Sequence record: NC_073080.1
Source: Escherichia phage EC115
Reading direction: 5' to 3' (one strand)
DNA: 44,849 nt
This document shows, piece by piece, positions 4,578-44,849 of this stretch. Numbering within the stretch: position 1 is the first letter of the stretch; every line of letters starts with the position of its first letter. Position numbers and translations under genes: made by a program. A model generated the notes under the pieces. It saw nothing but the letters and a program-made list of their open reading frames with translations, did no database searches and was not told where the DNA came from.

Positions 4578-4899
4578 ATATGCAGCGATTGGACTGGTTA
4601 TCGGTCTGGCGGTAGGATTCTGGCTAGGTGACTCCTATCGCGCTGGCGTAGTGGCGGAGGCGGCGCAAGAAGCGCAAGCCAAAGCCCAACGGCAGCAAAC
4701 TAAAGTTGTGGAGCGCTCCGTGCAGGCCGAACAGGCCCGCGACGTGGAATACCGGACTATCACGAAAGAGGTTGTTAAATATGTTACGCGCCCTAACCGC
4801 CCTGATTGTAGTTTTGATGCTGAGCGCGTGCGGATCAAGCAACGCGCCGTTGATGCCGCTAACGGAGTCGGCACTGCGACCGCCGTGCAAGTTCGATAG
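4570..4899 (+). CDS. i-spanin-like protein (Rz-like)
   Basis: 109 aa; N-terminal transmembrane segment (IGLVIGLAVGFWLG) followed by a charged Ala/Gln-rich helical region. Confidence 0.55.
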   Translation: MIKYAAIGLVIGLAVGFWLGDSYRAGVVAEAAQEAQAKAQRQQTKVVERSVQAEQARDVEYRTITKEVVKYVTRPNRPDCSFDAERVRIKQRAVDAANGVGTATAVQVR

Positions 4900-11014: not shown

Positions 11015-11043
11015 TTTGGTCGCTTAAATAGCGGGTGTTAATA

Positions 11044-11068
11044 TGGGGCCAGTACGGCCCCTTTTTTA
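11044..11068 (+). terminator. Intrinsic terminator after major tail gene
   Basis: GGGGCC-agta-CGGCCCC hairpin followed by a T-run. Confidence 0.6.
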
Positions 11069-11083
11069 TTGGAGAATTACATA

Positions 11084-12144: not shown

Positions 12145-14787
12145 ATGGCAGATCAGGCAGCGGGCATCACGCTCAAGGCGGACGTCGCGCAAATTAAAAC
12201 GGCTAATACTGTGCTGGACACATTCGCGCAGAAATCCGAGAACACAGAACAGAAAGTAAAGAAATTAAACGACACACTCGGCAAGTCGAAAAAGGTTACT
12301 GGCGACGCCGCGGGCGGAATGGAAAAGTTAGCGACTGAATCGCAGCGCGCCGCCGACGGCATGACGAAACAGGAGCGACTAGCCAGCCGATTAGGCATGT
12401 CGACCAAAAACCTGGGATTTGCTTCACGGAACGCGGCATTCCAGTTACAGGATATTGCGGTAACGCTTGAGATGGGTATGCCGGTGCACCGCGTCATGCT
12501 TCAGCAGTTACCACAGCTAACCGGCGCATTCGGCGGATTAGGTAACACGCTGCGTTATGTTGCGGGCTTCCTCGGCCCAGTAGGGATCGGACTTGCGGCA
12601 GTAACGGCGACGTTAGGCGTGGGCGTGGCAATCACGTCACGGGCAGAGAACCAGGTAGCCGCGCTTAATAAGACGCTGGCGCTGTCCGGTAATATTTCAG
12701 GCCTCACAGCTAACCAGATCCTTGTGCTGTCCGAGAACGCTGAGCGCATGGGCGGGTCATTTCGCAAGACGCGTGACACAATCCAGGCGCTGGCGGCGGC
12801 GGGTGTGAAAGCGGGTGGTGACTTCGGCGCATTGGCTAAGGTAGTTAATGACTTTGCGAAGGTGTCCAGCCAGCCGATCGAGGATGTGGTGGCGGCGGTG
12901 GCGAAGCTGTCAACCGACCCCGTTGGCGGACTGCGTGCGCTGGCGGATAAGTATCACGTCGTAAACGAAGCGCAGATCCAGCAGGTACAGTCGCTCGTTG
13001 ATGCGGGTCGTGAGACAGACGCAGTTGCGTTGGCTAACAAAACAGCCGCTGCGTCGTTCACCAGTATGACCAATGAGATCAAGGCGAACATGGGTACGCT
13101 TGAGCGATCTATGAACGTCGTCACATCGGCAGCCAAATCAATGTGGGATGCCATCCTGGATGTGGGCCGCGCGCAGTCCTCCAATGAGTCCGAGATGAAA
13201 GCGCGCGAATCACTACAGCGCATGACCACGGCTTACTATGCCGAGATGAAAGCGGTAAACGCTGCCGGTGGGGTAATGACTGAAGCGCAGAAAGCACGTA
13301 TTAACATGCTTTACAGCGAACTGGTCGCCCAGGAAAAAGTGGTGGCGTCGCTCACCCTGCGTAACCGTGCTGAGCGAGACAACGCCCGCGCCGCAGACGA
13401 ATCCGCAAAGGCGAACGAGGAGGCCAACCGCACTGCCCGTGACCGCGCCGCGTTCGAGAAGGAATACGCCACCAACGCTAAGAAGCGCGCCGACGAGATC
13501 GCCCGCCTCAATTTGCTGAATAAGCGCGGCGTTATTGATGAGAAAGAACTAGCCGAGGCGGTGAAGCAGGTAAACGAGCGGTACAAAGACCCAGCCCCGA
13601 AAAAGGCCGCGGCTGTTCGCGTGGATGCCGGTATGAAAATGCTGGAAGTCGCACGGAGCGAACTGGCCCAGCTTCGAGAATCCGGCAAGCAGATCGAAGC
13701 CAACGCGTCTACGCAGACCCGCACGCAACGCGCTCAAGCGGCCTTAAACAAGCTGATCGCCGACAATGAGCAGTTAATCGCTGCGAGCAAAGAAAGAGCG
13801 CTAACGGCAGCAGAAAAGCAGCAATTAGTCGAGTTCGGGCGCGTGAAGGAAGTCCGCGAGCAGATCGTCGAAGAAGCCAAATTGCTGGATGCGAAAGAGC
13901 AGCAGGTTAAGGCGCACGCGCAGATCGATGCCTTCGTTAAGAACCAGAACGCCGAACTAAAAGCCACCGCCGCGGGGTATGCGCTTTCCACTCGCGAAGC
14001 GGCAAACCTGCGCGAAGAATTGCAGCTAATTGACCGCCTGAAGCGGGTTGGCGCTAACGATACCGATATTGACAAGGCGGTGTCTAAGCTGCGAGAAGTG
14101 CAGGAAGCACAGACCGGCGCTAACGCCTCGTTATGGGATGGATTCAGTCGCGGGCTTAAGGATAGCGTGGATGAAATGGGTAACGGATATACGCAGATGG
14201 CGTCGCTCACGAAATTTACATTCAGCGCTATGCAGGACACGATGAACGAGTTTTTCGAGACTGGTAAGCTGAACGCAAAGGATATGGTTAAGTCCATCCT
14301 GAGCGAATTAATCAAGCTGGCTACCTCGCAGGCGTTCAAGTCCATCGTTAGCGCTTTCGGTGGTGACGGCGGCAAAAACGGATTGTTCGGCGCTATCTTC
14401 TCTGGCCTCACTAAGAATGCGGACGGCGGAGCGTACACAGGCGGCAATCTCGCGGCCTATTCGGGGAAAGTGGTAAGCCAGCCTACCTTTTTCAGTTATG
14501 GCGTCCAGGCGTTCGCTAAGGGCGCTGGGTTGATGGGTGAGGCTGGACCCGAGGCCATCATGCCACTGAAGCGCGGGCCGGACGGGAAACTGGGCGTTGC
14601 CGCGTCTGGCGCAGGCGGTGGTATGGTCGTGACGACTAACGTTTACACGGGGACCGGTAAGACGGACACCAGTGTTAGCGGGCCAGACCCACGTACCGCG
14701 CAGGCGTTCGGCAAGCAAATCACCGAGGCGGTGAAGTCCGAGATCGTGAAAGCGACTAAACCAGGTGGTGTACTTTACAAACGATGA
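12145..14787 (+). CDS. Tail tape measure protein
   Basis: 880 aa, Ala/Gln-rich coiled-coil with Gly-rich C-terminal region; follows G/GT and precedes the M-L-K-I-J block. Confidence 0.9.
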   Translation: MADQAAGITLKADVAQIKTANTVLDTFAQKSENTEQKVKKLNDTLGKSKKVTGDAAGGMEKLATESQRAADGMTKQERLASRLGMSTKNLGFASRNAAFQLQDIAVTLEMGMPVHRVMLQQLPQLTGAFGGLGNTLRYVAGFLGPVGIGLAAVTATLGVGVAITSRAENQVAALNKTLALSGNISGLTANQILVLSENAERMGGSFRKTRDTIQALAAAGVKAGGDFGALAKVVNDFAKVSSQPIEDVVAAVAKLSTDPVGGLRALADKYHVVNEAQIQQVQSLVDAGRETDAVALANKTAAASFTSMTNEIKANMGTLERSMNVVTSAAKSMWDAILDVGRAQSSNESEMKARESLQRMTTAYYAEMKAVNAAGGVMTEAQKARINMLYSELVAQEKVVASLTLRNRAERDNARAADESAKANEEANRTARDRAAFEKEYATNAKKRADEIARLNLLNKRGVIDEKELAEAVKQVNERYKDPAPKKAAAVRVDAGMKMLEVARSELAQLRESGKQIEANASTQTRTQRAQAALNKLIADNEQLIAASKERALTAAEKQQLVEFGRVKEVREQIVEEAKLLDAKEQQVKAHAQIDAFVKNQNAELKATAAGYALSTREAANLREELQLIDRLKRVGANDTDIDKAVSKLREVQEAQTGANASLWDGFSRGLKDSVDEMGNGYTQMASLTKFTFSAMQDTMNEFFETGKLNAKDMVKSILSELIKLATSQAFKSIVSAFGGDGGKNGLFGAIFSGLTKNADGGAYTGGNLAAYSGKVVSQPTFFSYGVQAFAKGAGLMGEAGPEAIMPLKRGPDGKLGVAASGAGGGMVVTTNVYTGTGKTDTSVSGPDPRTAQAFGKQITEAVKSEIVKATKPGGVLYKR

Positions 14788-14793
14788 TAAAAT

Positions 14794-14820
14794 GGCCCTC
14801 ACTACAACGTGGGGGCTTTT
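14794..14820 (+). terminator. Hairpin plus T-run directly before the gene M start
   Basis: GCCCTCAC-tacaac-GTGGGGGC followed by five T, then ATG at 14822; terminator or attenuator. Confidence 0.4.
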
Positions 14821-20500: not shown

Positions 20501-20973
20501 TCGAGCAGAAGATGACGTCCTCGTTTAACCACTCTGGTGGTAGCGCCACGTATAGCCTTAAGGCTGGCGTGACACATAACGGGACTTATTATGATGCGGG
20601 TATGCAGCTTTCCGTTGTGACGTCTGGCAACGCGGTTAAATCGCGTATTGCGTTCAAGGCGGACCAGTTCTACATCATGCATCCGTCCAATGGGACGCTG
20701 TCGTCTGCGTTTATTGTGGACGGTGGCGCGGTGTATATCGACACGGCACGCATCAAGAACGCGTCCATCAACTTCGCGCAGATAACAGACACGCTGCAAT
20801 CGGATAACTACGACGGCAGCACGCGCGGCTGGCGCTTAGGGAAAGATGGAACGTTTATCAACCTGGGCACCGGTAGCGGCGGCGGGATGAAACAGACGAA
20901 CACAAGAATAAGCGTGAAGGACGGAAACGGCGTTCTCCGCGTGCAGATTGGTGAGCTTACTGGTAGCTGGTAG
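17554..20973 (+). CDS. Tail tip / host specificity protein J-like
   Basis: 1139 aa, size and position as lambda J; Ala/Gln-rich repeats in the C-terminal third. Confidence 0.9.
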   Translation: MTIIYDVTGHKGGGGKQHTPQETPDSLHSLAKIRILLALGEGEFESITSASELRQRVYLDGTPIQNADLSENFPGARVEFRPGTQHQDVIHGFSAVESEQSVGVKLENGTPWVRQINDTSLDAVRIRIGIPALYTNEDNGDLVGGRIDYKIVVYTDNADPREFRFAAVGKTMSLYERDHRIELPPNVNTGWRVEVHRITADSTSAKVVNDIRVQSITEIIDARLRYPLTALLFVEFDAKAFQNIPRVSIKCKGRKVLIPNNYDPINHTYSGDWDGTFKRAWTDNPAWHWYDICITERFGLGRRIKPQMLNRYALYQIAQRCDQLVSDGNGGREIRFKNDMYIQSQTDAWTVLKDLAAIFAGMTWWGNQMLNIVSDQPVAAVSHTITNASVIDGRFDYASGSQKTRYSTFAVAYGNPKNHYEDAIATGQRVELVRRHKINRLDITAIGCTRESEAQRRGHWALISNQLDQQVSFKVGMEGLFFIPGSVVAIADTNISGGFETRGGRLLSDPGTRTVLNTDSEITFRPGDKFLVRTDSGNVETREIASVNGNKVTLKTALDADPIPDQPFCVDGDDIQLQKFRITDLEYDDSTSTFSVRGIEYNDSKYDAVDNGARLDPGIFTQVPDGVMKGPESVTITPSQISSQGQLITNVDIVFPPVKDAVVYEIQWRRTSLQNMEIQWGNDWVNIPRTASNGAHIPNVFSGNYQARVRAIGMGEISSPWVSSAITPVEGRLGGLNAPIITNAISGLHQILWKWNHNNAATDISYTELEVRKTGETEWKFLTNVPYPGAEYAQTSLEFGIYQQLRARVADKIGNLSDWSAPFEGQVSDKVDEYMKGLDDEFLTSEDGKRFQEAINTIPQGIYEAMLTDAQQLFNARAEYKGIYAEISVAYNVAADAHKAVAQLETLIGTRLDDAEAAIHTLQTAQSTQEQAFAQYQQTVAAKFGEQEAAIQQVQTATADVAGALAEYKTQVAAQFGQQSAAIEQKMTSSFNHSGGSATYSLKAGVTHNGTYYDAGMQLSVVTSGNAVKSRIAFKADQFYIMHPSNGTLSSAFIVDGGAVYIDTARIKNASINFAQITDTLQSDNYDGSTRGWRLGKDGTFINLGTGSGGGMKQTNTRISVKDGNGVLRVQIGELTGSW

Positions 20974-20976
20974 TAT

Positions 20977-20996
20977 AGGGGCTTCGGCCCCTTTTT
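20977..20996 (+). terminator. Intrinsic terminator after J
   Basis: AGGGGC-ttcg-GCCCCT hairpin followed by a T-run. Confidence 0.6.
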
Positions 20997-21009
20997 AACG
21001 AGGTTATTT

Positions 21010-40651: not shown

Positions 40652-40924
40652 ATGGACCGCAGACGCGCGAAACAGCTTTCGTGGCATATCCCACTGCATT
40701 GCATACGAATATGGGCTAAGAATGCGAATGAGGGCGATTCTGTGTTCTGGAGCTATCGCGACGATGTGAAGCCCCTAACGCAGACCCGCTATCTGCACCA
40801 GTTCGCCAGGGAGCATGGATTCGCTATAAAAACGTCCTTGCAACCAATTGGCATCCGTATTACATTACGCCGGAAGCCCGCCGTTGAGCGGGTAGGCAAA
40901 CACTGGAGACTGAGCAAATGTTGA
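40652..40924 (+). CDS. Hypothetical protein
   Basis: 90 aa basic ORF in operon context. Confidence 0.5.
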   Translation: MDRRRAKQLSWHIPLHCIRIWAKNANEGDSVFWSYRDDVKPLTQTRYLHQFAREHGFAIKTSLQPIGIRITLRRKPAVERVGKHWRLSKC

Positions 40925-42165: not shown

Positions 42166-42456
42166 ATGGATAAGCTAAACGAGTGGTTATTCGCCCTTGC
42201 GTGTCTTGCTGGTGGCTTCGTAGGCGCACGCATTCATGGCGAGGCAACGAAAGGGCCGTTGAACTTCGTTTTATATGTCGTAGTTGGCTTCCTGTGTGCC
42301 ATATTTGGTGCGCCAGCTATTGCCGAGTGGTCTGGTTTGTCCGGTGAGCGCACTGTTGCCGGTTTGGGCTTCGTAACTGCCATCTTCTGGATGCCAATAG
42401 CTGACCGGATCCGGGAGACAATTGCGTCGCTACACCTTCCGGGGGGCGCAAAATGA
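42166..42456 (+). CDS. Holin (putative, three transmembrane segments)
   Basis: 96 aa with three hydrophobic segments and a charged C-terminus; upstream of the endolysin. Confidence 0.55.
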   Translation: MDKLNEWLFALACLAGGFVGARIHGEATKGPLNFVLYVVVGFLCAIFGAPAIAEWSGLSGERTVAGLGFVTAIFWMPIADRIRETIASLHLPGGAK

Positions 42457-42698
42457 TTATCACCGTCCTGTTGTTTGTTATCATAGGGGCTTCGTCCCTG
42501 TTTAACGTGTATGCGCCGTCCGTTCAGGATGGCTTCTTCGGTCGGGTGTTATATCTGCTAACAGCAATGACCTGTATTGTCGGGCTGTTGCAAACGGGAG
42601 ACGTCTCTGATGCCACCTGGACCGCGTTAATCTGGCTGTTTGCATTGCGCACCCTGCGTAATGCTGTTTTGAATGGGGTAAAACATGCGATTCAGTGA
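42453..42698 (+). CDS. Second holin-like membrane protein
   Basis: 81 aa with three hydrophobic segments; ATGA overlap with the holin, overlaps the endolysin start. Confidence 0.5.
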   Translation: MIITVLLFVIIGASSLFNVYAPSVQDGFFGRVLYLLTAMTCIVGLLQTGDVSDATWTALIWLFALRTLRNAVLNGVKHAIQ

Positions 42699-43176
42699 TA
42701 ACGGTCTACGATTTACGGCAGCATGGGAGGCTTTCAGCCCGGTGCCGTATTTCGCGACCAAGAAAGAGCAGGCCCGCGGCCTGTACACCTGGGGTTATGG
42801 GCACACTGGCACTAATCCGCCACGAAGCATTACCCGTGCGGAAGCGCTGGAACTGCTCAAGCGCGATGTGGCGTATGCTGAGGACTGGGTGAACAAATAC
42901 GCACATCCGAGCATTAACCAGGCGCAATTCGACGCGCTGGTGGATCTGGTAATCAACGCCGGTCCAGGTCCGATCGTACCGGATGACGTCGCGAACGACT
43001 TTGATGATGCGGTGCGACTGGGCGACTGGGCGAAGGTACGAGCTACTCTGCCGCAGTTCCGCAAGCAAGGTGGCGAAGTGCTTAAGGGTCTGGTGCGCCG
43101 TGCAATCGGCAGGCAAGCGCTATTCGATGGTAAGCAGTGGGACGTTGCCGAGCGAATCGGTCGTAACGCTGCATAA
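42685..43176 (+). CDS. Endolysin (phage lysozyme-like)
   Basis: 163 aa; E...YTWGYGHTG segment resembling the catalytic region of phage lysozymes; follows the holins. Confidence 0.75.
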   Translation: MRFSDNGLRFTAAWEAFSPVPYFATKKEQARGLYTWGYGHTGTNPPRSITRAEALELLKRDVAYAEDWVNKYAHPSINQAQFDALVDLVINAGPGPIVPDDVANDFDDAVRLGDWAKVRATLPQFRKQGGEVLKGLVRRAIGRQALFDGKQWDVAERIGRNAA

Positions 43177-43192
43177 TACGAGGTGACACGAT

Positions 43193-43360
43193 ATGTTAAA
43201 AAGTATTCTTGATCATAATGCGGACGCGCTTGCTGCACTGGCTAAAACCGAAGACCCTGGCGCACGCGCTATCATCGCGGACACTATCAGCCATGCAGGC
43301 GTCTTCGATGCGAAGCTGCCAAGCCCACCACCGCAGGAGGAATCTGGTCCTGCAGCGTAA
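43193..43360 (+). CDS. Small hypothetical protein
   Basis: 55 aa with GAGG RBS, Pro-rich C-terminus; followed by a terminator. Confidence 0.4.
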   Translation: MLKSILDHNADALAALAKTEDPGARAIIADTISHAGVFDAKLPSPPPQEESGPAA

Positions 43361-43366
43361 ACAATC

Positions 43367-43394
43367 AAGCCCGGATAATTCCGGGCTTTTTATT
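43367..43394 (+). terminator. Intrinsic terminator after lysis cassette
   Basis: AAGCCCGG-ataatt-CCGGGCTT hairpin followed by TTTATT. Confidence 0.65.
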
Positions 43395-43455
43395 GCTTGA
43401 CTCGCAACCAACACAGGGGCCATACTGCAACCAATCAACTGGAGGAGTAATCAAG

Positions 43456-43536
43456 ATGGCACGTAAAGATATTTGGGTATTAGCGATCTGGACCACCGCG
43501 GCTTTTATCGGCATGGTTATTTGCGAATTGATATAG
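43456..43536 (+). CDS. Hydrophobic micro-protein (26 aa)
   Basis: MARKDIWVLAIWTTAAFIGMVICELI with strong GGAGGAG RBS; two GCAACCAA 9-mers upstream. Confidence 0.35.
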   Translation: MARKDIWVLAIWTTAAFIGMVICELI

Positions 43537-43597
43537 CCAGCCGCCATACGGACCGTGGTATATTGTCCACGGTCCACTAATCAGGAATTAATTAAAT

Positions 43598-44740
43598 ATG
43601 CACCCGCAAACTAAAATTACCGATGAGCAATTGATCGCAGAAATTCAGGCAGGGACTACGGTTAAAGATATTGCGAAGAAATACGGGATTGCCCTACGCA
43701 ATGTTTATATGCGGAAAGCCCGCCTATCGAAAAAATGCATTGGACACGGCAACGATGCCGTAATCCGCAAGCGCGTTGCCGATGGCTTTGGGGTTAAGCG
43801 CGTATCGGCCCTGGTGCGCGGCAATGGCGAAGAGGTCATGTCGTGGGTCATCACTGAGCAGGACAAAGAGCGCCAACTCGAAGCCATGCGCGCTGTTGTC
43901 GAGGGTATGAACAGCGAAATCACACCGGCAGCGCCAGTAAAAGCCCCGCCAGTTCCGATCCAGGCGCTCGACTTGCTCAACCTGTACACCGTGTCAGACT
44001 TCCACCTGGGCATGTTGGCATGGGGCGAGGAGACTGGCGAAGACTGGGATATGGCGATCGCCGAAGACCTGTTCTACCGCTGGTTTGTCGAAGCCTTCGC
44101 ACGCGCCCCGGACGCAGGCACTGCCGTAATTAATATCCTCGGTGATATGGCCCACTTTGATAGCCTCGATGCTGTCACTCCGGCAAGTGGTCACATACTG
44201 GACGCGGACACCCGCTACCAGAGACTGGTACGATACATGATTCGCATGGTGCGCAACGTCGTCGAACTGGCGCTGCAAAAACACCACAAAGTCAAACTGC
44301 TAATCGTCCAGGGGAATCATGATGAGTCGGGCATGATTTGGCTTGCTGAGATGTTCAACACGCTGTACGAGAACGAGCCGCGCGTCGATGTGGACACGTC
44401 CCCGGACGTCTACAAAATGGTGCAGCACGGTAAGACCACGCTATTTTTCCACCACGGGCACAAAGCGCGATTCGATGCTATCGAGCAGGTTATGATCGCT
44501 AAATTCAGACAGGCGTTCGGGGCGAGCGAATACAGCTACGCGCACGTAGGTCATTTGCACCACCAGAAGATTGTTGAGTCCCGCAACATGATTGTTGAAC
44601 AGCACCGGACGCTCGCAGCGAAAGACGCCTACGCCAGCCGTGGTGGTTGGATGTCCGGTCGCAGCGCCAACGTCATTACCTACAGCGCCAACTACGGCGA
44701 AGTAGCGCGCTTAACCATTAGCCCGGAAATGTTGAAGTAA
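43598..44740 (+). CDS. Metallophosphatase with N-terminal HTH-like region
   Basis: 380 aa; calcineurin-like motifs ILGDMAH, GNHDE, GHLHH; N-terminal 40 aa resemble an HTH. Confidence 0.75.
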   Translation: MHPQTKITDEQLIAEIQAGTTVKDIAKKYGIALRNVYMRKARLSKKCIGHGNDAVIRKRVADGFGVKRVSALVRGNGEEVMSWVITEQDKERQLEAMRAVVEGMNSEITPAAPVKAPPVPIQALDLLNLYTVSDFHLGMLAWGEETGEDWDMAIAEDLFYRWFVEAFARAPDAGTAVINILGDMAHFDSLDAVTPASGHILDADTRYQRLVRYMIRMVRNVVELALQKHHKVKLLIVQGNHDESGMIWLAEMFNTLYENEPRVDVDTSPDVYKMVQHGKTTLFFHHGHKARFDAIEQVMIAKFRQAFGASEYSYAHVGHLHHQKIVESRNMIVEQHRTLAAKDAYASRGGWMSGRSANVITYSANYGEVARLTISPEMLK

Positions 44741-44751
44741 CGGCAACCCAT

Positions 44752-44787
44752 AAGCCTCCCAGCCTGCCGATTTGGTGGGCTTTTTTG
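44752..44787 (+). terminator. Intrinsic terminator after phosphatase gene
   Basis: Imperfect ~10 bp stem (AAGCCTCCCA / TGGTGGGCTT) followed by a T-run. Confidence 0.45.
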
Positions 44788-44791
44788 TGCC

Positions 44792-44800
44792 TGTTATAAT
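44792..44800 (+). promoter_or_regulatory. Extended -10 element (TGTTATAAT) pointing off the window end
   Basis: TGnTATAAT match 50 nt before the window end; would read into the terminase gene if the genome is circular or permuted. Confidence 0.3.
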
Positions 44801-44849
44801 CCCCCTTAGATGGCAGGGCCGTCTCCTATGTTGCCGATGGTCGGCGCAT

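What the first reader, a model, noticed from the sequence alone, without database searches (positions are those of the whole stretch)
43456..44740. HTH-metallophosphatase fusion preceded by a strongly expressed hydrophobic micro-protein
The last gene encodes a calcineurin-like metallophosphatase (GDxxH, GNHDE, GHxH motifs) with an N-terminal HTH-like region, preceded by a 26 aa hydrophobic ORF with a very strong RBS and its own promoter-like region. Phage phosphoesterases can act on host signalling or nucleotide second messengers, so this could be a counter-defence or host-modulation unit.
Basis: partly seen in the sequence, partly recalled or inferred. Interest (0 to 1): 0.5.

Follow-up and report, generated by a model that had tools for sequence, protein, structure and literature searches.

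The report
Membrane micro-protein plus DNA-binding phage nuclease
The last gene of this E. coli phage (a Dhillonvirus) encodes a DNA-binding enzyme shaped like a DNA-cutting nuclease, preceded by a never-annotated 26-residue membrane peptide; the same pair occurs in phage T1 and its relatives, which makes the enzyme a testable candidate for the still-unidentified enzyme that destroys the host chromosome.

Summary
The window is a complete Dhillonvirus genome. Gene 43598-44740 encodes a 380-aa protein with an N-terminal HTH and a C-terminal metallophosphoesterase (MPE) domain, with all five catalytic motifs invariant across relatives. A 26-aa single-pass membrane ORF (43456-43536) with a GGAGG ribosome-binding site and its own promoter lies upstream.

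Two results are new:
- The micro-ORF shows coding-type conservation (p=1e-4). Equivalent unannotated 22-31-aa hydrophobic ORFs sit directly upstream of the MPE in T1-like phages (15 of 17 loci, including T1) and in Jedunavirus.
- In Kagunavirus-like and Jedunavirus loci the MPE is followed at once by a homologue of T5 Dmp, the 5'-dNMP phosphatase. In the Kagunavirus-like loci a dNMP kinase follows that.

Best reading, at about 0.4 confidence: a DNA-targeted nuclease that degrades host DNA for takeover and nucleotide salvage, analogous to T5 A1. The micro-protein is a frequent but dispensable membrane partner. No activity has been shown.

The parts
43367..43388 (+). Intrinsic terminator (9-bp GC-rich stem, then a T-run) that closes the lysis cassette and the 55-aa ORF
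   Evidence: It is conserved in relatives.
43397..43426 (+). Promoter-like site P1 (TTGACT, 18 nt, CATACT) for the micro-ORF
   Evidence: 9 of 12 matches. It is present in every close relative that carries the micro-ORF cassette and is deleted together with it in L005, L010 and L013.
43441..43447 (+). Shine-Dalgarno sequence GGAGGAG of the micro-ORF, 8 nt before the ATG
   Evidence: Read from the sequence. Relatives have GAGAGGAG.
43456..43536 (+). Micro-ORF of 26 aa, predicted single-pass membrane peptide MARKDIWVLAIWTTAAFIGMVICELI
   Evidence: Intact in 28 loci. Synonymous variants are enriched in this frame only (17 of 32 against 22% expected, p=1e-4). It is absent from a 15-billion-protein collection and from every GenBank annotation inspected.
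43550..43575 (.). Inverted repeat GGACCGTGG / CCACGGTCC that encloses the -10 element. It forms a hairpin in the P1 transcript, or could be a palindromic operator.
   Evidence: Unique in the window. The RNA fold is -21.1 kcal/mol, z=-2.3. The outer stem is conserved and is lengthened by a paired change in L011 and L012. The repeat is degenerate in relatives that lack the micro-ORF.
43556..43564 (+). Extended -10 promoter P2 (TGGTATATT), the MPE gene's own promoter
   Evidence: The core GTG(G/A)TATATTG is present in 15 of the 16 aligned close relatives (window included), among them three of the four that lack the micro-ORF (L005, L010, L015); L013 has ATGATATATTG, which keeps the TG and the hexamer.
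43583..43587 (+). Shine-Dalgarno sequence AGGAA of the MPE gene, 10 nt before the ATG
   Evidence: Read from the sequence. The same CAGGAA...ATG context occurs in Rogue1-type T1-like phages.
43598..44740 (+). HTH-metallophosphoesterase gene (380 aa), member of phrog_704
   Evidence: phrog_704 matched over its full length at E=1.1e-159. There are 4628 cluster representatives at E<=1e-3. AF2 model pLDDT 93.9, pTM 0.83.
43622..43732 (+). N-terminal helix-turn-helix, residues 9-45
43958..44737 (+). Binuclear metallophosphoesterase domain, residues 121-380, with motifs I-V intact
44761..44781 (+). Intrinsic terminator after the MPE gene
44792..44800 (+). Extended -10 promoter (TGTTATAAT) of the terminase and late operon, which continues at window position 1. 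It shows that the MPE unit is transcriptionally insulated from that operon.
   Evidence: terS lies at 1-573.

Best explanation
The 380-aa protein is a DNA-binding, two-metal phosphodiesterase that acts as a DNA nuclease. It is transcribed as a self-contained unit from its own extended -10 promoter and by read-through from the micro-ORF promoter, and it ends at its own terminator. Its most likely job is to attack the host chromosome, for host takeover and to supply deoxynucleotides. This is analogous to phage T5 A1 (an N-terminal DNA-binding domain plus a C-terminal nuclease domain) and to the mycobacteriophage MPE Gp48. The 26-aa micro-ORF encodes a real single-pass inner-membrane peptide, co-transcribed with the enzyme. 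Equivalent peptides are translationally coupled to the enzyme gene in T1-like phages. It is probably an accessory partner, for example a membrane tether, a timing device or a modulator, and is not required for catalysis. Shown here: the gene structure, motif conservation, fold similarity, family distribution, coding-type conservation of the micro-ORF, and the two kinds of synteny. Inferred: nuclease activity, host DNA as the substrate, and any physical or functional link between the peptide and the enzyme.
For: 1. All catalytic MPE residues are invariant across 73 relatives down to 31% identity, so this is an active enzyme.
3. Motif II is GDxxH (H186, present in at least 90% of members), the Mre11-type form (my own knowledge of Mre11). 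The weak PDB profile hit 'Nuclease MPE' 6nvo shares LGDFLH and GNHD, but at a non-significant E of 1.9.
4. An HTH DNA-binding domain is fused in nearly all members, and different members match different HTH families.
5. There is gene linkage to dNMP metabolism. In 17 Kagunavirus-like loci the MPE stop is followed within 3 nt by a HAD phosphatase of phrog_415, and then by a dNMP kinase of phrog_139. T5 Dmp, the 5'-dNMPase, matches phrog_415 at E=3.6e-57. In Jedunavirus MEW1 the same HAD gene overlaps the MPE stop. In L059, L060 and a Vibrio phage a nucleoside 2-deoxyribosyltransferase-like gene (phrog_355) follows.
6. There are precedents. [quoted passage not shown] A1 lies in one operon with a two-TM protein and dmp. 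Mycobacteriophage Gp48, an MPE, disrupts host genomic DNA (PMC12287305).
7. T1 and TLS degrade the host genome and reuse the nucleotides, and the enzyme responsible is unidentified (PMC11447400). T1 ST16 belongs to this family.
8. The family is widespread in phages: 2059 of 50,697 records, including essentially all Dhillonvirus records.
9. Micro-ORF: coding-type conservation. It also recurs upstream of the MPE in 15 of 17 T1-like loci, where its stop lies 1-14 nt before the MPE ATG and, in the T1- and JK06-type loci, its ATG overlaps the previous gene's stop (ATGA). It recurs likewise in L052 and in MEW1.
Against: - No activity has been measured for any member of this family.
- This Dhillonvirus has no Dmp or dNMP kinase homologue, so the salvage linkage is borrowed from other lineages.
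- phrog_415 and PF25109 also describe polynucleotide 3'-phosphatases, so the linkage could instead point to nucleic-acid end healing.
- Profile comparison with T5 A1 aligns only motif III (probability 18%).
- Relatives occur in bacterial genome contigs that look like prophages. A host-destroying nuclease would there have to be tightly controlled.
- Host DNA degradation has not been reported for Dhillonvirus in the literature I could search.
- The micro-ORF is absent from about one third of Dhillonviruses and from distant relatives. In the T1-like subgroup the synonymous/non-synonymous test was not significant (p=0.22).
Confidence: 0.4

Rival explanations
1. A phage DNA replication, recombination or repair nuclease. 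It would process ends, hairpins or concatemers like Mre11/SbcD, or proofread like PolD DP1. This is what the PHROG label 'DNA repair exonuclease' implies.
Against: - There is no Rad50/SbcC-like partner in the genome.
- There is no capping domain. The MPE domain ends at the core sandwich and only about 190 residues align.
- Dhillonvirus already has a PolA-type polymerase, while T1 and TLS have no polymerase to proofread for (PMC11447400).
- The genomic position is not conserved. In Kagunavirus the gene lies in an inverted island inside the tail module.
- The linkage is to dNMP enzymes, not to recombinases.
Confidence: 0.2
2. A nucleic-acid end-healing enzyme, a 2',3'-cyclic phosphodiesterase or 3'-phosphatase. 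It would work with the adjacent Pnkp-type HAD phosphatase and P-loop kinase to repair tRNA or DNA cut by host defence nucleases.
For: The downstream gene matches PF25109 (HAD_PNKP, E=8.5e-21) and the PHROGs labelled polynucleotide kinase. It is followed by a P-loop kinase. From my own knowledge, bacterial Pnkp uses an MPE-fold phosphatase domain.
Against: - The linked genes are absent from this phage.
- No RNA ligase was seen in the annotated relative.
- An HTH fusion is not expected for RNA repair.
- The kinase matches the dNMP kinase family phrog_139, not a polynucleotide kinase family.
Confidence: 0.1
3. A phosphodiesterase for cyclic nucleotide or oligonucleotide immune signals (CBASS, Pycsar, type III CRISPR, Thoeris). 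This is the counter-defence idea of the first reader.
Against: - These folds rank below the nucleases.
- A conserved DNA-binding HTH has no role in degrading a small molecule.
- The gene is a highly conserved core gene (96-99% aa identity within the genus), unlike variable anti-defence loci.
- No PADLOC hit and no literature link was found.
Confidence: 0.08
4. Primarily a transcription factor: an autoregulator, or an activator or repressor of phage or host promoters through a sigma-70 region 4 / LuxR-type HTH. The MPE domain would be regulatory or act on a protein or RNAP-bound substrate.
For: The HTH matches Sigma70_r4_2, GerE, LysR and Fis families. An inverted repeat straddles the gene's own -10 element, and another lies in the promoter spacer of Rogue1-type phages. 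The gene lies just upstream of the late operon in Dhillonvirus and Jedunavirus.
Against: - All catalytic residues are invariant, so catalysis is the selected function.
- The inverted repeat occurs once in the genome and degenerates in relatives that lack the micro-ORF.
- The position relative to late genes is not conserved.
Confidence: 0.08
5. The micro-ORF is not a gene. It would be a chance ORF in a regulatory leader, or the real gene would be the minus-strand 60-70-aa ORF annotated in some records.
For: No database protein and no family matches it. JL1, PEC14 and CEC_Kaz_2018 annotate a minus-strand CDS there. The ORF is missing from a third of the genus.
Against: - Synonymous changes are enriched only in the plus frame (p=1e-4). 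The annotated minus frame is not significant and shares third-codon positions with the plus frame.
- The minus ORF would run through a terminator and has no PHROG match.
- The micro-ORF has a strong SD and a promoter.
- In L007 and L008 a downstream ORF overlaps its stop.
- Analogous hydrophobic micro-ORFs recur in T1-like phages and MEW1.
- The background rate of such hydrophobic short ORFs is about 2%.
Confidence: 0.08

Closest known systems
phrog_704 proteins ('DNA repair exonuclease'): T1 ST16, Rogue1 gp57, Kagunavirus and Jerseyvirus metallophosphoesterases
   Same: The same family over its full length (E=1.1e-159), with the same HTH + MPE architecture and invariant motifs.
   Different: Nothing structural differs. 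None of these proteins has a tested function, and the label is an inference from fold. The genomic position differs between genera.
Mre11 / SbcD nucleases and the PolD DP1 proofreading exonuclease
   Different: - Only 13-17% identity, and no significant sequence match.
- No capping domain.
- No Rad50/SbcC or polymerase partner.
- An extra N-terminal HTH and a family-specific conserved loop, VTPxSGHxLDxDxR.
Phage T5 A1 with its pre-early operon (A2, the two-TM protein T5.005, A1, dmp)
   Same: - The same domain logic: an N-terminal DNA-binding domain and a C-terminal nuclease domain.
- A small membrane protein is encoded just upstream.
- A Dmp-family HAD phosphatase lies in the same operon. In Kagunavirus and Jedunavirus it lies directly downstream of the MPE.
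- A1 is required for host DNA degradation.
   Different: - Homology is not demonstrated. hhalign aligns only motif III (NHDxxxSxWL) at 18% probability.
- A1 belongs to a different PHROG (1745) and matches no Pfam family.
- A1 is 556 aa.
- T5.005 is not similar to the membrane proteins found here.
Mycobacteriophage A10ZJ24 Gp48 (cluster A MPE)
   Same: A phage MPE with five conserved motifs and phosphodiesterase activity. It is expressed early, damages host genomic DNA and is toxic to the host (PMC12287305).
   Different: Motif I starts at residue 10 (the D10G mutant), so it has no N-terminal HTH. Its relation to this family beyond the superfamily was not tested here.
Class III cNMP phosphodiesterases and glycerophosphodiesterases (Rv0805, GpdQ), and lambda/PPP protein phosphatases
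   Same: The same superfamily fold and metal ligands.
Small phage and bacterial membrane peptides (T4 Imm-type superinfection immunity proteins, type I toxins)
   Same: A short, basic N-terminus followed by a single hydrophobic helix. In Kagunavirus the gene in the same position is an Imm_superinfect-family two-TM protein.
   Different: No sequence similarity to any family. The cassette is absent from 5,426 E. coli genomes. At 26 aa it is far shorter than Imm.

Membership tests
Calcineurin-like metallophosphoesterase superfamily (Pfam PF00149 / PF12850) | Five motifs that supply the metal ligands: DxH, GDxx(D/H), GNH(D/E), H, GHxH | tested here: met
   D134/H136, G182/D183/H186, G239/N240/H241/D242, H286 and G318/H319/H321 are all present. 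They are invariant or at least 90% conserved in 73 relatives.
Calcineurin-like metallophosphoesterase superfamily (Pfam PF00149 / PF12850) | Score above Pfam's gathering threshold | tested here: not met
   Metallophos_2 scores 23.0 bits against a cut-off of 27. Metallophos scores 20.4 against 21.5. Only 21 of 73 relatives match PF00149 at E<=0.01. The family is divergent.
Calcineurin-like metallophosphoesterase superfamily (Pfam PF00149 / PF12850) | Beta-sandwich MPE fold | tested here: met
Mre11 / SbcD nuclease family | Nuclease-type MPE core with a motif II histidine (GDxxH) | tested here: met
Mre11 / SbcD nuclease family | C-terminal capping domain | tested here: not met
   The protein ends with the core sandwich at residue 380. 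Only 185-193 residues align to Mre11 and SbcD chains of 319-362 residues.
Mre11 / SbcD nuclease family | A Rad50/SbcC ATPase partner encoded alongside | tested here: not met
   The fully annotated relative 'jat' has no SMC/ABC-type ATPase gene. None lies next to the gene in T1-like, Kagunavirus, Vibrio or Jedunavirus loci.
Mre11 / SbcD nuclease family | Mn2+-dependent exo- or endonuclease activity on DNA | not testable with these tools
   This needs a biochemical assay.
phrog_704 | Full-length profile match | tested here: met
   E=1.1e-159, with residues 5-380 matched to profile positions 2-390 of 390.
PPP protein Ser/Thr phosphatases (lambda phosphatase type) | Motifs GDxHG, GDxVDRG and GNHE | tested here: not met
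Class III cyclic-nucleotide phosphodiesterases (CpdA / Rv0805) | Closest structural or sequence neighbour, with cNMP hydrolysis | tested here: inconclusive
T5 A1-like DNA transfer / host-degradation proteins (phrog_1745) | Sequence or profile homology to A1 | tested here: inconclusive
   hhalign gives 18% probability, with 19 columns aligned around motif III. A1 falls in a different PHROG.
HTH DNA-binding domains (LuxR/GerE, sigma-70 region 4 type) | Tri-helical HTH recognised by profile models | tested here: met
   This protein matches GerE at E=0.023, below threshold. Relatives match Sigma70_r4_2 at 1.5e-9, GerE at 2.4e-8 and HTH_1 at 4.3e-6. The family profile matches GerE 1fse at E=0.03. 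The model has helices at 9-17, 22-29 and 33-45.
Small membrane proteins (for the micro-ORF) | A translated product inserted in the membrane | not testable with these tools
   Only indirect support exists: hydropathy 2.1 over 21 residues, a basic N-terminus, coding-type conservation and a strong SD.

The most novel reading that the evidence does not exclude
The hydrophobic micro-protein and the HTH-MPE form a conserved two-component host-takeover device of T1-like, Dhillonvirus and Jedunavirus phages. The peptide would recruit or gate the DNA-binding nuclease at the inner membrane. The pair would be the long-sought function that degrades the host chromosome in T1 (the classical host-degradation-defective, high-transduction mutants). 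Functionally it would be equivalent to the T5 A1/A2/T5.005 pre-early module, or alternatively it would destroy superinfecting DNA at the point of entry.
Probability: 0.2. Interest if true: 0.8.

Novelty: new variant of a known kind. Interest (0 to 1): 0.6.

Why it matters
**An untested core gene.** The enzyme family is a core gene of several of the most commonly isolated coliphage, Salmonella and Klebsiella phage groups: T1-like, Dhillonvirus, Kagunavirus/Jerseyvirus and Jedunavirus. It is present in about 4% of all sequenced phage records. Its label, 'DNA repair exonuclease', has never been tested.

**An open question it could answer.** A 2024 re-annotation of TLS and T1 states that the gene responsible for host-genome degradation and nucleotide reuse in these phages is still unknown (PMC11447400). 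This protein is a concrete candidate that one knockout could test.
- The answer bears on generalised transduction by therapeutic phages, because T1 mutants defective in host degradation transduce at high frequency.
- It also bears on what phage signals defence systems sense.

**A missed gene.** The micro-ORF is a conserved phage gene that every annotation pipeline missed, including in the T1 reference genome. It gives a defined case for studying phage micro-proteins.

Tried and rejected
**Searches that found nothing useful**
- Sequence search of the PDB with the protein, the family profile and an MPE-only profile gave nothing significant. Designed repeat proteins were spurious hits. GerE scored 0.03, SbcD 0.29 and 'Nuclease MPE' 1.9.
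- NCBIfam gave no family. PADLOC gave none.
- Rfam on 43100-44849 gave only sub-threshold chance matches.
- An exact look-up of four micro-protein variants in the 15-billion-protein collection found none.
- blastn of the micro-ORF cassette against 5,426 E. coli genomes found no match.
- The 17-mer micro-ORF pattern in IMG/VR returned the same Dhillonvirus contigs plus unrelated contigs that I took for chance hits without inspecting them.

**Literature**
- I found no functional study of this family in Dhillonvirus or Drexlerviridae.
- Three phage essentiality screens (HIDEN-SEQ, a transposon screen, CRISPRi-ART) do not cover these phages.
- The SECphi4 escape-mutant study does not mention this gene.
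- The anti-Tmn gene of Dhillonvirus is a different gene.

**Comparisons that were inconclusive or negative**
- T5 A1 homology is inconclusive.
- T5.005 is not similar to the Imm-like protein.
- The synonymous/non-synonymous test in the T1-like micro-ORF subgroup had too few variants (p=0.22).
- Homology between the Dhillonvirus and T1-like micro-proteins cannot be shown. They share only architecture and a loose motif.

**Technical failures and limits**
- The search for related loci with alignments A1 and A2 failed because no stretch was conserved enough. A3 worked.
- Distant relatives in bacterial contigs have no micro-ORF. Several sit behind lipoprotein (o-spanin-like) genes instead.

**Idea rejected**
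- I rejected the idea that the gene belongs to the terminase operon, because a terminator and a separate promoter intervene.
Full report
**What the window is.** The 44,849-nt window is a complete genome of a Dhillonvirus, an HK578-like virulent siphovirus of E. coli. The region 42600-44849 is 94-96% identical to more than 100 Escherichia phages (PNS1, JL1, SECphi4, jat and others). The window begins at the small terminase gene. The finding therefore covers the last transcription unit before the late operon.

**Check of the observation.** All the described elements are present.
- An intrinsic terminator (43367-43388) closes the lysis cassette.
- A sigma-70-like promoter, TTGACT-18-CATACT (43397-43426), follows.
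- Next come the SD GGAGGAG (43441-43447) and the 26-codon ORF at 43456-43536, which encodes MARKDIWVLAIWTTAAFIGMVICELI.
- Then comes a perfect 9-bp inverted repeat (43550-43575). It encloses an extended -10 element, TGGTATATT (43556-43564).
- The 380-codon gene occupies 43598-44740.
- A terminator lies at 44761-44781, and a further extended -10 promoter (44792-44800) serves the terminase operon.
- The five metallophosphoesterase motifs are intact.

**The enzyme family.**
- Pfam recognises the MPE domain only just below threshold.
- PHROGs places the whole protein in phrog_704, 'DNA repair exonuclease' (E=1.1e-159, full length).
- An exhaustive search of 1.84 billion cluster representatives finds 4628 relatives at E<=1e-3, nearly all 370-420 aa with the same architecture.
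- In an alignment of 73 relatives down to 31% identity, D134, H136, G182, D183, T194, N240, H241, H286, G318 and H321 are invariant. H186, D188, D202, R206, D242, H285, H288 and H319 are at least 90% conserved. The protein is therefore an active enzyme.
- The N-terminal HTH is marginal in this protein, but in relatives it matches Sigma70_r4_2 (1.5e-9), GerE (2.4e-8), LysR, Fis and other HTH families.
- tblastn finds the family in 2059 of 50,697 phage records. These cover Dhillonvirus, Kagunavirus/Jerseyvirus, Drexlerviridae (including T1 ST16), Jedunavirus, Vibrio and Campylobacter phages, and roseophages.

**Fold.**
- AlphaFold2 with the 73-sequence alignment gives pLDDT 93.9 and pTM 0.83.
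- LpxH (13.8), further Mre11 and SbcD entries (13.0-13.5) and small phosphodiesterases (MJ0936 13.4, YfcE 12.6) come next.
- Rv0805 (12.2) and GpdQ (12.1) follow. PPP protein phosphatases score only about 9.
- Foldseek agrees. BFVD shows a large clade of phage MPEs of 370-500 aa.
- Sequence searches of the PDB give nothing significant.
- There is no Mre11 capping domain and no Rad50/SbcC partner in the genome.
- The protein is therefore a distinct MPE family that resembles nucleases. It is not a member of the Mre11/SbcD family, and it is not lambda-phosphatase-like.

**Context across lineages.** The position of the gene is not conserved.
- In Dhillonvirus it lies between the lysis cassette and terS.
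- In Kagunavirus it lies in an inverted island (Imm-type membrane protein, MPE, small ORFs) inside the tail module.
- In T1-like phages it lies among small genes downstream of the helicase.
- It behaves as an autonomous unit with its own promoter and terminator.

Two linkages recur.
- In 17 Kagunavirus-like loci the MPE is followed within 3 nt by a HAD phosphatase of phrog_415 and then by a dNMP kinase of phrog_139. In Jedunavirus MEW1 the same HAD gene overlaps the MPE stop.
- phrog_415 is the family that T5 Dmp, the 5'-deoxynucleotidase, matches at E=3.6e-57. Direct Dmp-to-HAD similarity is weak (E=2e-4).
- In L059, L060 and a Vibrio phage a nucleoside 2-deoxyribosyltransferase-like gene follows.
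- All of these enzymes act on the products of DNA breakdown. This Dhillonvirus itself has none of them.

**The micro-ORF.**
- Among 15 close IMG/VR relatives the segment between the terminator and the MPE promoter is mosaic. The P1 + micro-ORF cassette is present in 11, cleanly absent in 4, truncated in Sodalis phage SO-1, and sometimes accompanied by extra small ORFs.
- In the GenBank phage collection, 103 records carry at least 80% of the 240-nt region, out of about 155 that carry the MPE region.
- Across 28 loci (15 distinct sequences) the ORF is always intact. Of 32 variants, 17 are synonymous in its frame against 22% expected (p=1e-4). The other five frames are at expectation. That includes the minus-strand frame that JL1, PEC14 and CEC_Kaz_2018 annotate as a CDS (p=0.056, explained by shared third-codon positions).
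- No record inspected annotates the plus-strand ORF. The peptide is absent from a 15-billion-protein collection.

**Recurrence of the micro-ORF in other phages.**
- In 15 of 17 T1-like IMG/VR loci a 22-26-aa hydrophobic ORF ends 1-14 nt before the MPE ATG. In the T1- and JK06-type loci its ATG overlaps the stop of the preceding gene (ATGA); Rogue1-type loci L104, L105 and L113 have an intergenic gap instead.
- Examples are T1 MKLYFAVVLTPLISFSVMYFIIM (NC_005833 40740-40811, unannotated), Rogue1 MKTLLPLMAMPLTFIIMYFIIC and the JK06-type MKSLILVALVPLFSFTILYFIVMN.
- L052 has a 27-aa ORF. L071 has a 26-aa ORF that ends 1 nt before the MPE ATG. Jedunavirus MEW1 has a 31-aa ORF.
- Only 3 of 126 ATG-ORFs of 20-35 aa in the window reach this hydrophobicity, so independent chance occurrence is very unlikely.
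- Limits: homology between the Dhillonvirus and T1-like peptides cannot be demonstrated. The substitution test within one T1-like subgroup is underpowered (p=0.22). Distant relatives in bacterial contigs lack the micro-ORF and often follow spanin-like lipoprotein genes instead.

**Mechanism.**
- The best-supported reading is a DNA-targeted two-metal nuclease used for host-DNA degradation and nucleotide salvage.
- It rests on the nuclease-like fold, the fused DNA-binding domain, the linkage to dNMP enzymes, and two precedents.
  - T5 A1 is required for host DNA degradation. [quoted passage not shown]
  - Mycobacteriophage Gp48 is an MPE that disrupts host genomic DNA.
- T1 and TLS are known to degrade the host genome and reuse the nucleotides. 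The responsible gene product is explicitly unidentified (PMC11447400).
- All of this is inference, and no member of the family has been assayed. I put it at about 0.4.
- Rivals: a replication, recombination or repair nuclease (0.2), end healing with the Pnkp-like neighbours (0.1), a signal-nucleotide phosphodiesterase (0.08) and a transcription factor (0.08).
- The micro-protein is very likely translated (about 0.9 that it is a real gene). Its role is unknown. Tight translational coupling in T1-like phages suggests a partner or modulator of the enzyme. Its absence from a third of Dhillonviruses shows that it is dispensable.

**The inverted repeat.**
- The repeat at the MPE promoter folds at -21 kcal/mol in the P1 transcript (z=-2.3).
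- It shows one paired change that lengthens the stem in L011 and L012. It degenerates where the micro-ORF is absent.
- It may be a 3' hairpin of the micro-ORF transcript or an operator. This was not resolved.

**Novelty and verdict.**
- The enzyme family is catalogued but uncharacterised.
- The micro-ORF and its conserved pairing with the HTH-MPE, including in the T1 reference genome, appear to be unreported. So does the Dmp and dNMP-kinase linkage. I base this on the databases and literature I could search.
- I class the finding as a new variant of a known kind, namely phage MPE nucleases used in host takeover, and score interest at 0.6.

Noticed in passing
L123 (phage T1, NC_005833) locus 1741-1812 = record 40740-40811; also L104-L119 just upstream of position 701: The T1 reference genome and 15 of 17 T1-like contigs carry an unannotated 22-26-aa hydrophobic ORF. 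It lies between ST17-like genes and the MPE gene (ST16). In the T1- and JK06-type loci its ATG overlaps the upstream stop (ATGA), and in all of them its stop lies 1-14 nt before the MPE ATG.
   Followed up: yes
L016 4122-5176 (and 16 other Kagunavirus-like loci); L102 5119-5610; L059 4265-4822: Directly downstream of the MPE lie a HAD phosphatase of the T5 Dmp family (phrog_415, PF25109) and a dNMP kinase (phrog_139). In other lineages a DUF7768 / nucleoside 2-deoxyribosyltransferase-like gene takes that place. This is a nucleotide-salvage neighbourhood, and it is absent from this window.
   Followed up: yes
window 43365-43577, minus strand: Several GenBank and RefSeq records (JL1 gp04, PEC14_9, CEC_Kaz_2018 gp45) annotate a 60-66-aa minus-strand CDS here. 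It runs antisense through the terminator, the promoter and the micro-ORF. It has no PHROG match and no coding-type substitution signal, so it is probably spurious.
   Followed up: yes
window 43361-43597 compared with L003-L015: The segment between the lysis-cassette terminator and the MPE promoter is a hot spot for gain and loss of small genes.
- L006 and L012 carry an extra ORF between P1 and the micro-ORF.
- L007 and L008 carry a 57-aa ORF that overlaps the micro-ORF stop.
- L005, L010, L013 and L015 lack the cassette.
- L003, L004 and L015 have a different upstream gene.
   Followed up: partly
window 43193-43360: A conserved 55-aa ORF (phrog_11068) lies after the endolysin; one record calls it the 'lysozyme downstream ORF'. 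[quoted passage not shown] I could not tell whether it is this gene.
   Followed up: no
window 42166-43176: The lysis cassette has two holin-like genes and a lysozyme, but no spanin is annotated in any relative inspected. More distant MPE loci (L139, L140, L144) have lipoprotein, o-spanin-like genes immediately upstream of the MPE.
   Followed up: no
window 11036-11070, 14785-14820, 20968-21000, 6236, 36151, 40279, 44792: There are many extended -10-like elements (TGNTANNAT) in intergenic positions. Several are followed at once by a GC-rich hairpin and a T-run, so terminator and promoter-like signals are packed together between late genes.
   Followed up: no
L073/L104 about 4845-4880 (Rogue1-type phages): The promoter-like region upstream of the Rogue1 micro-ORF contains an inverted repeat (CGCCATGGATGGCG) in the spacer. 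This parallels the inverted repeat around the -10 element of the Dhillonvirus MPE promoter and may be an operator.
   Followed up: no
L011 (Sodalis phage SO-1, 45,169 bp) about 2898-2990: The micro-ORF carries an internal deletion that fuses it out of frame to downstream sequence, giving MARNDIWVLAIWSAAIGTVVYCPRSHNQEVD. It is a naturally truncated variant in a phage that infects a different host genus.
   Followed up: partly
L076 (phage T5) 1706-4134: The T5 pre-early operon has the order A2 (DNA-binding), T5.005 (two-TM membrane protein), A1 (DNA-binding domain plus nuclease domain), two small ORFs, then dmp. This parallels the arrangement of membrane peptide, HTH-MPE and Dmp-like HAD seen here. 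Only motif III (NHDxxxSxWL) aligns between A1 and this family.
   Followed up: partly
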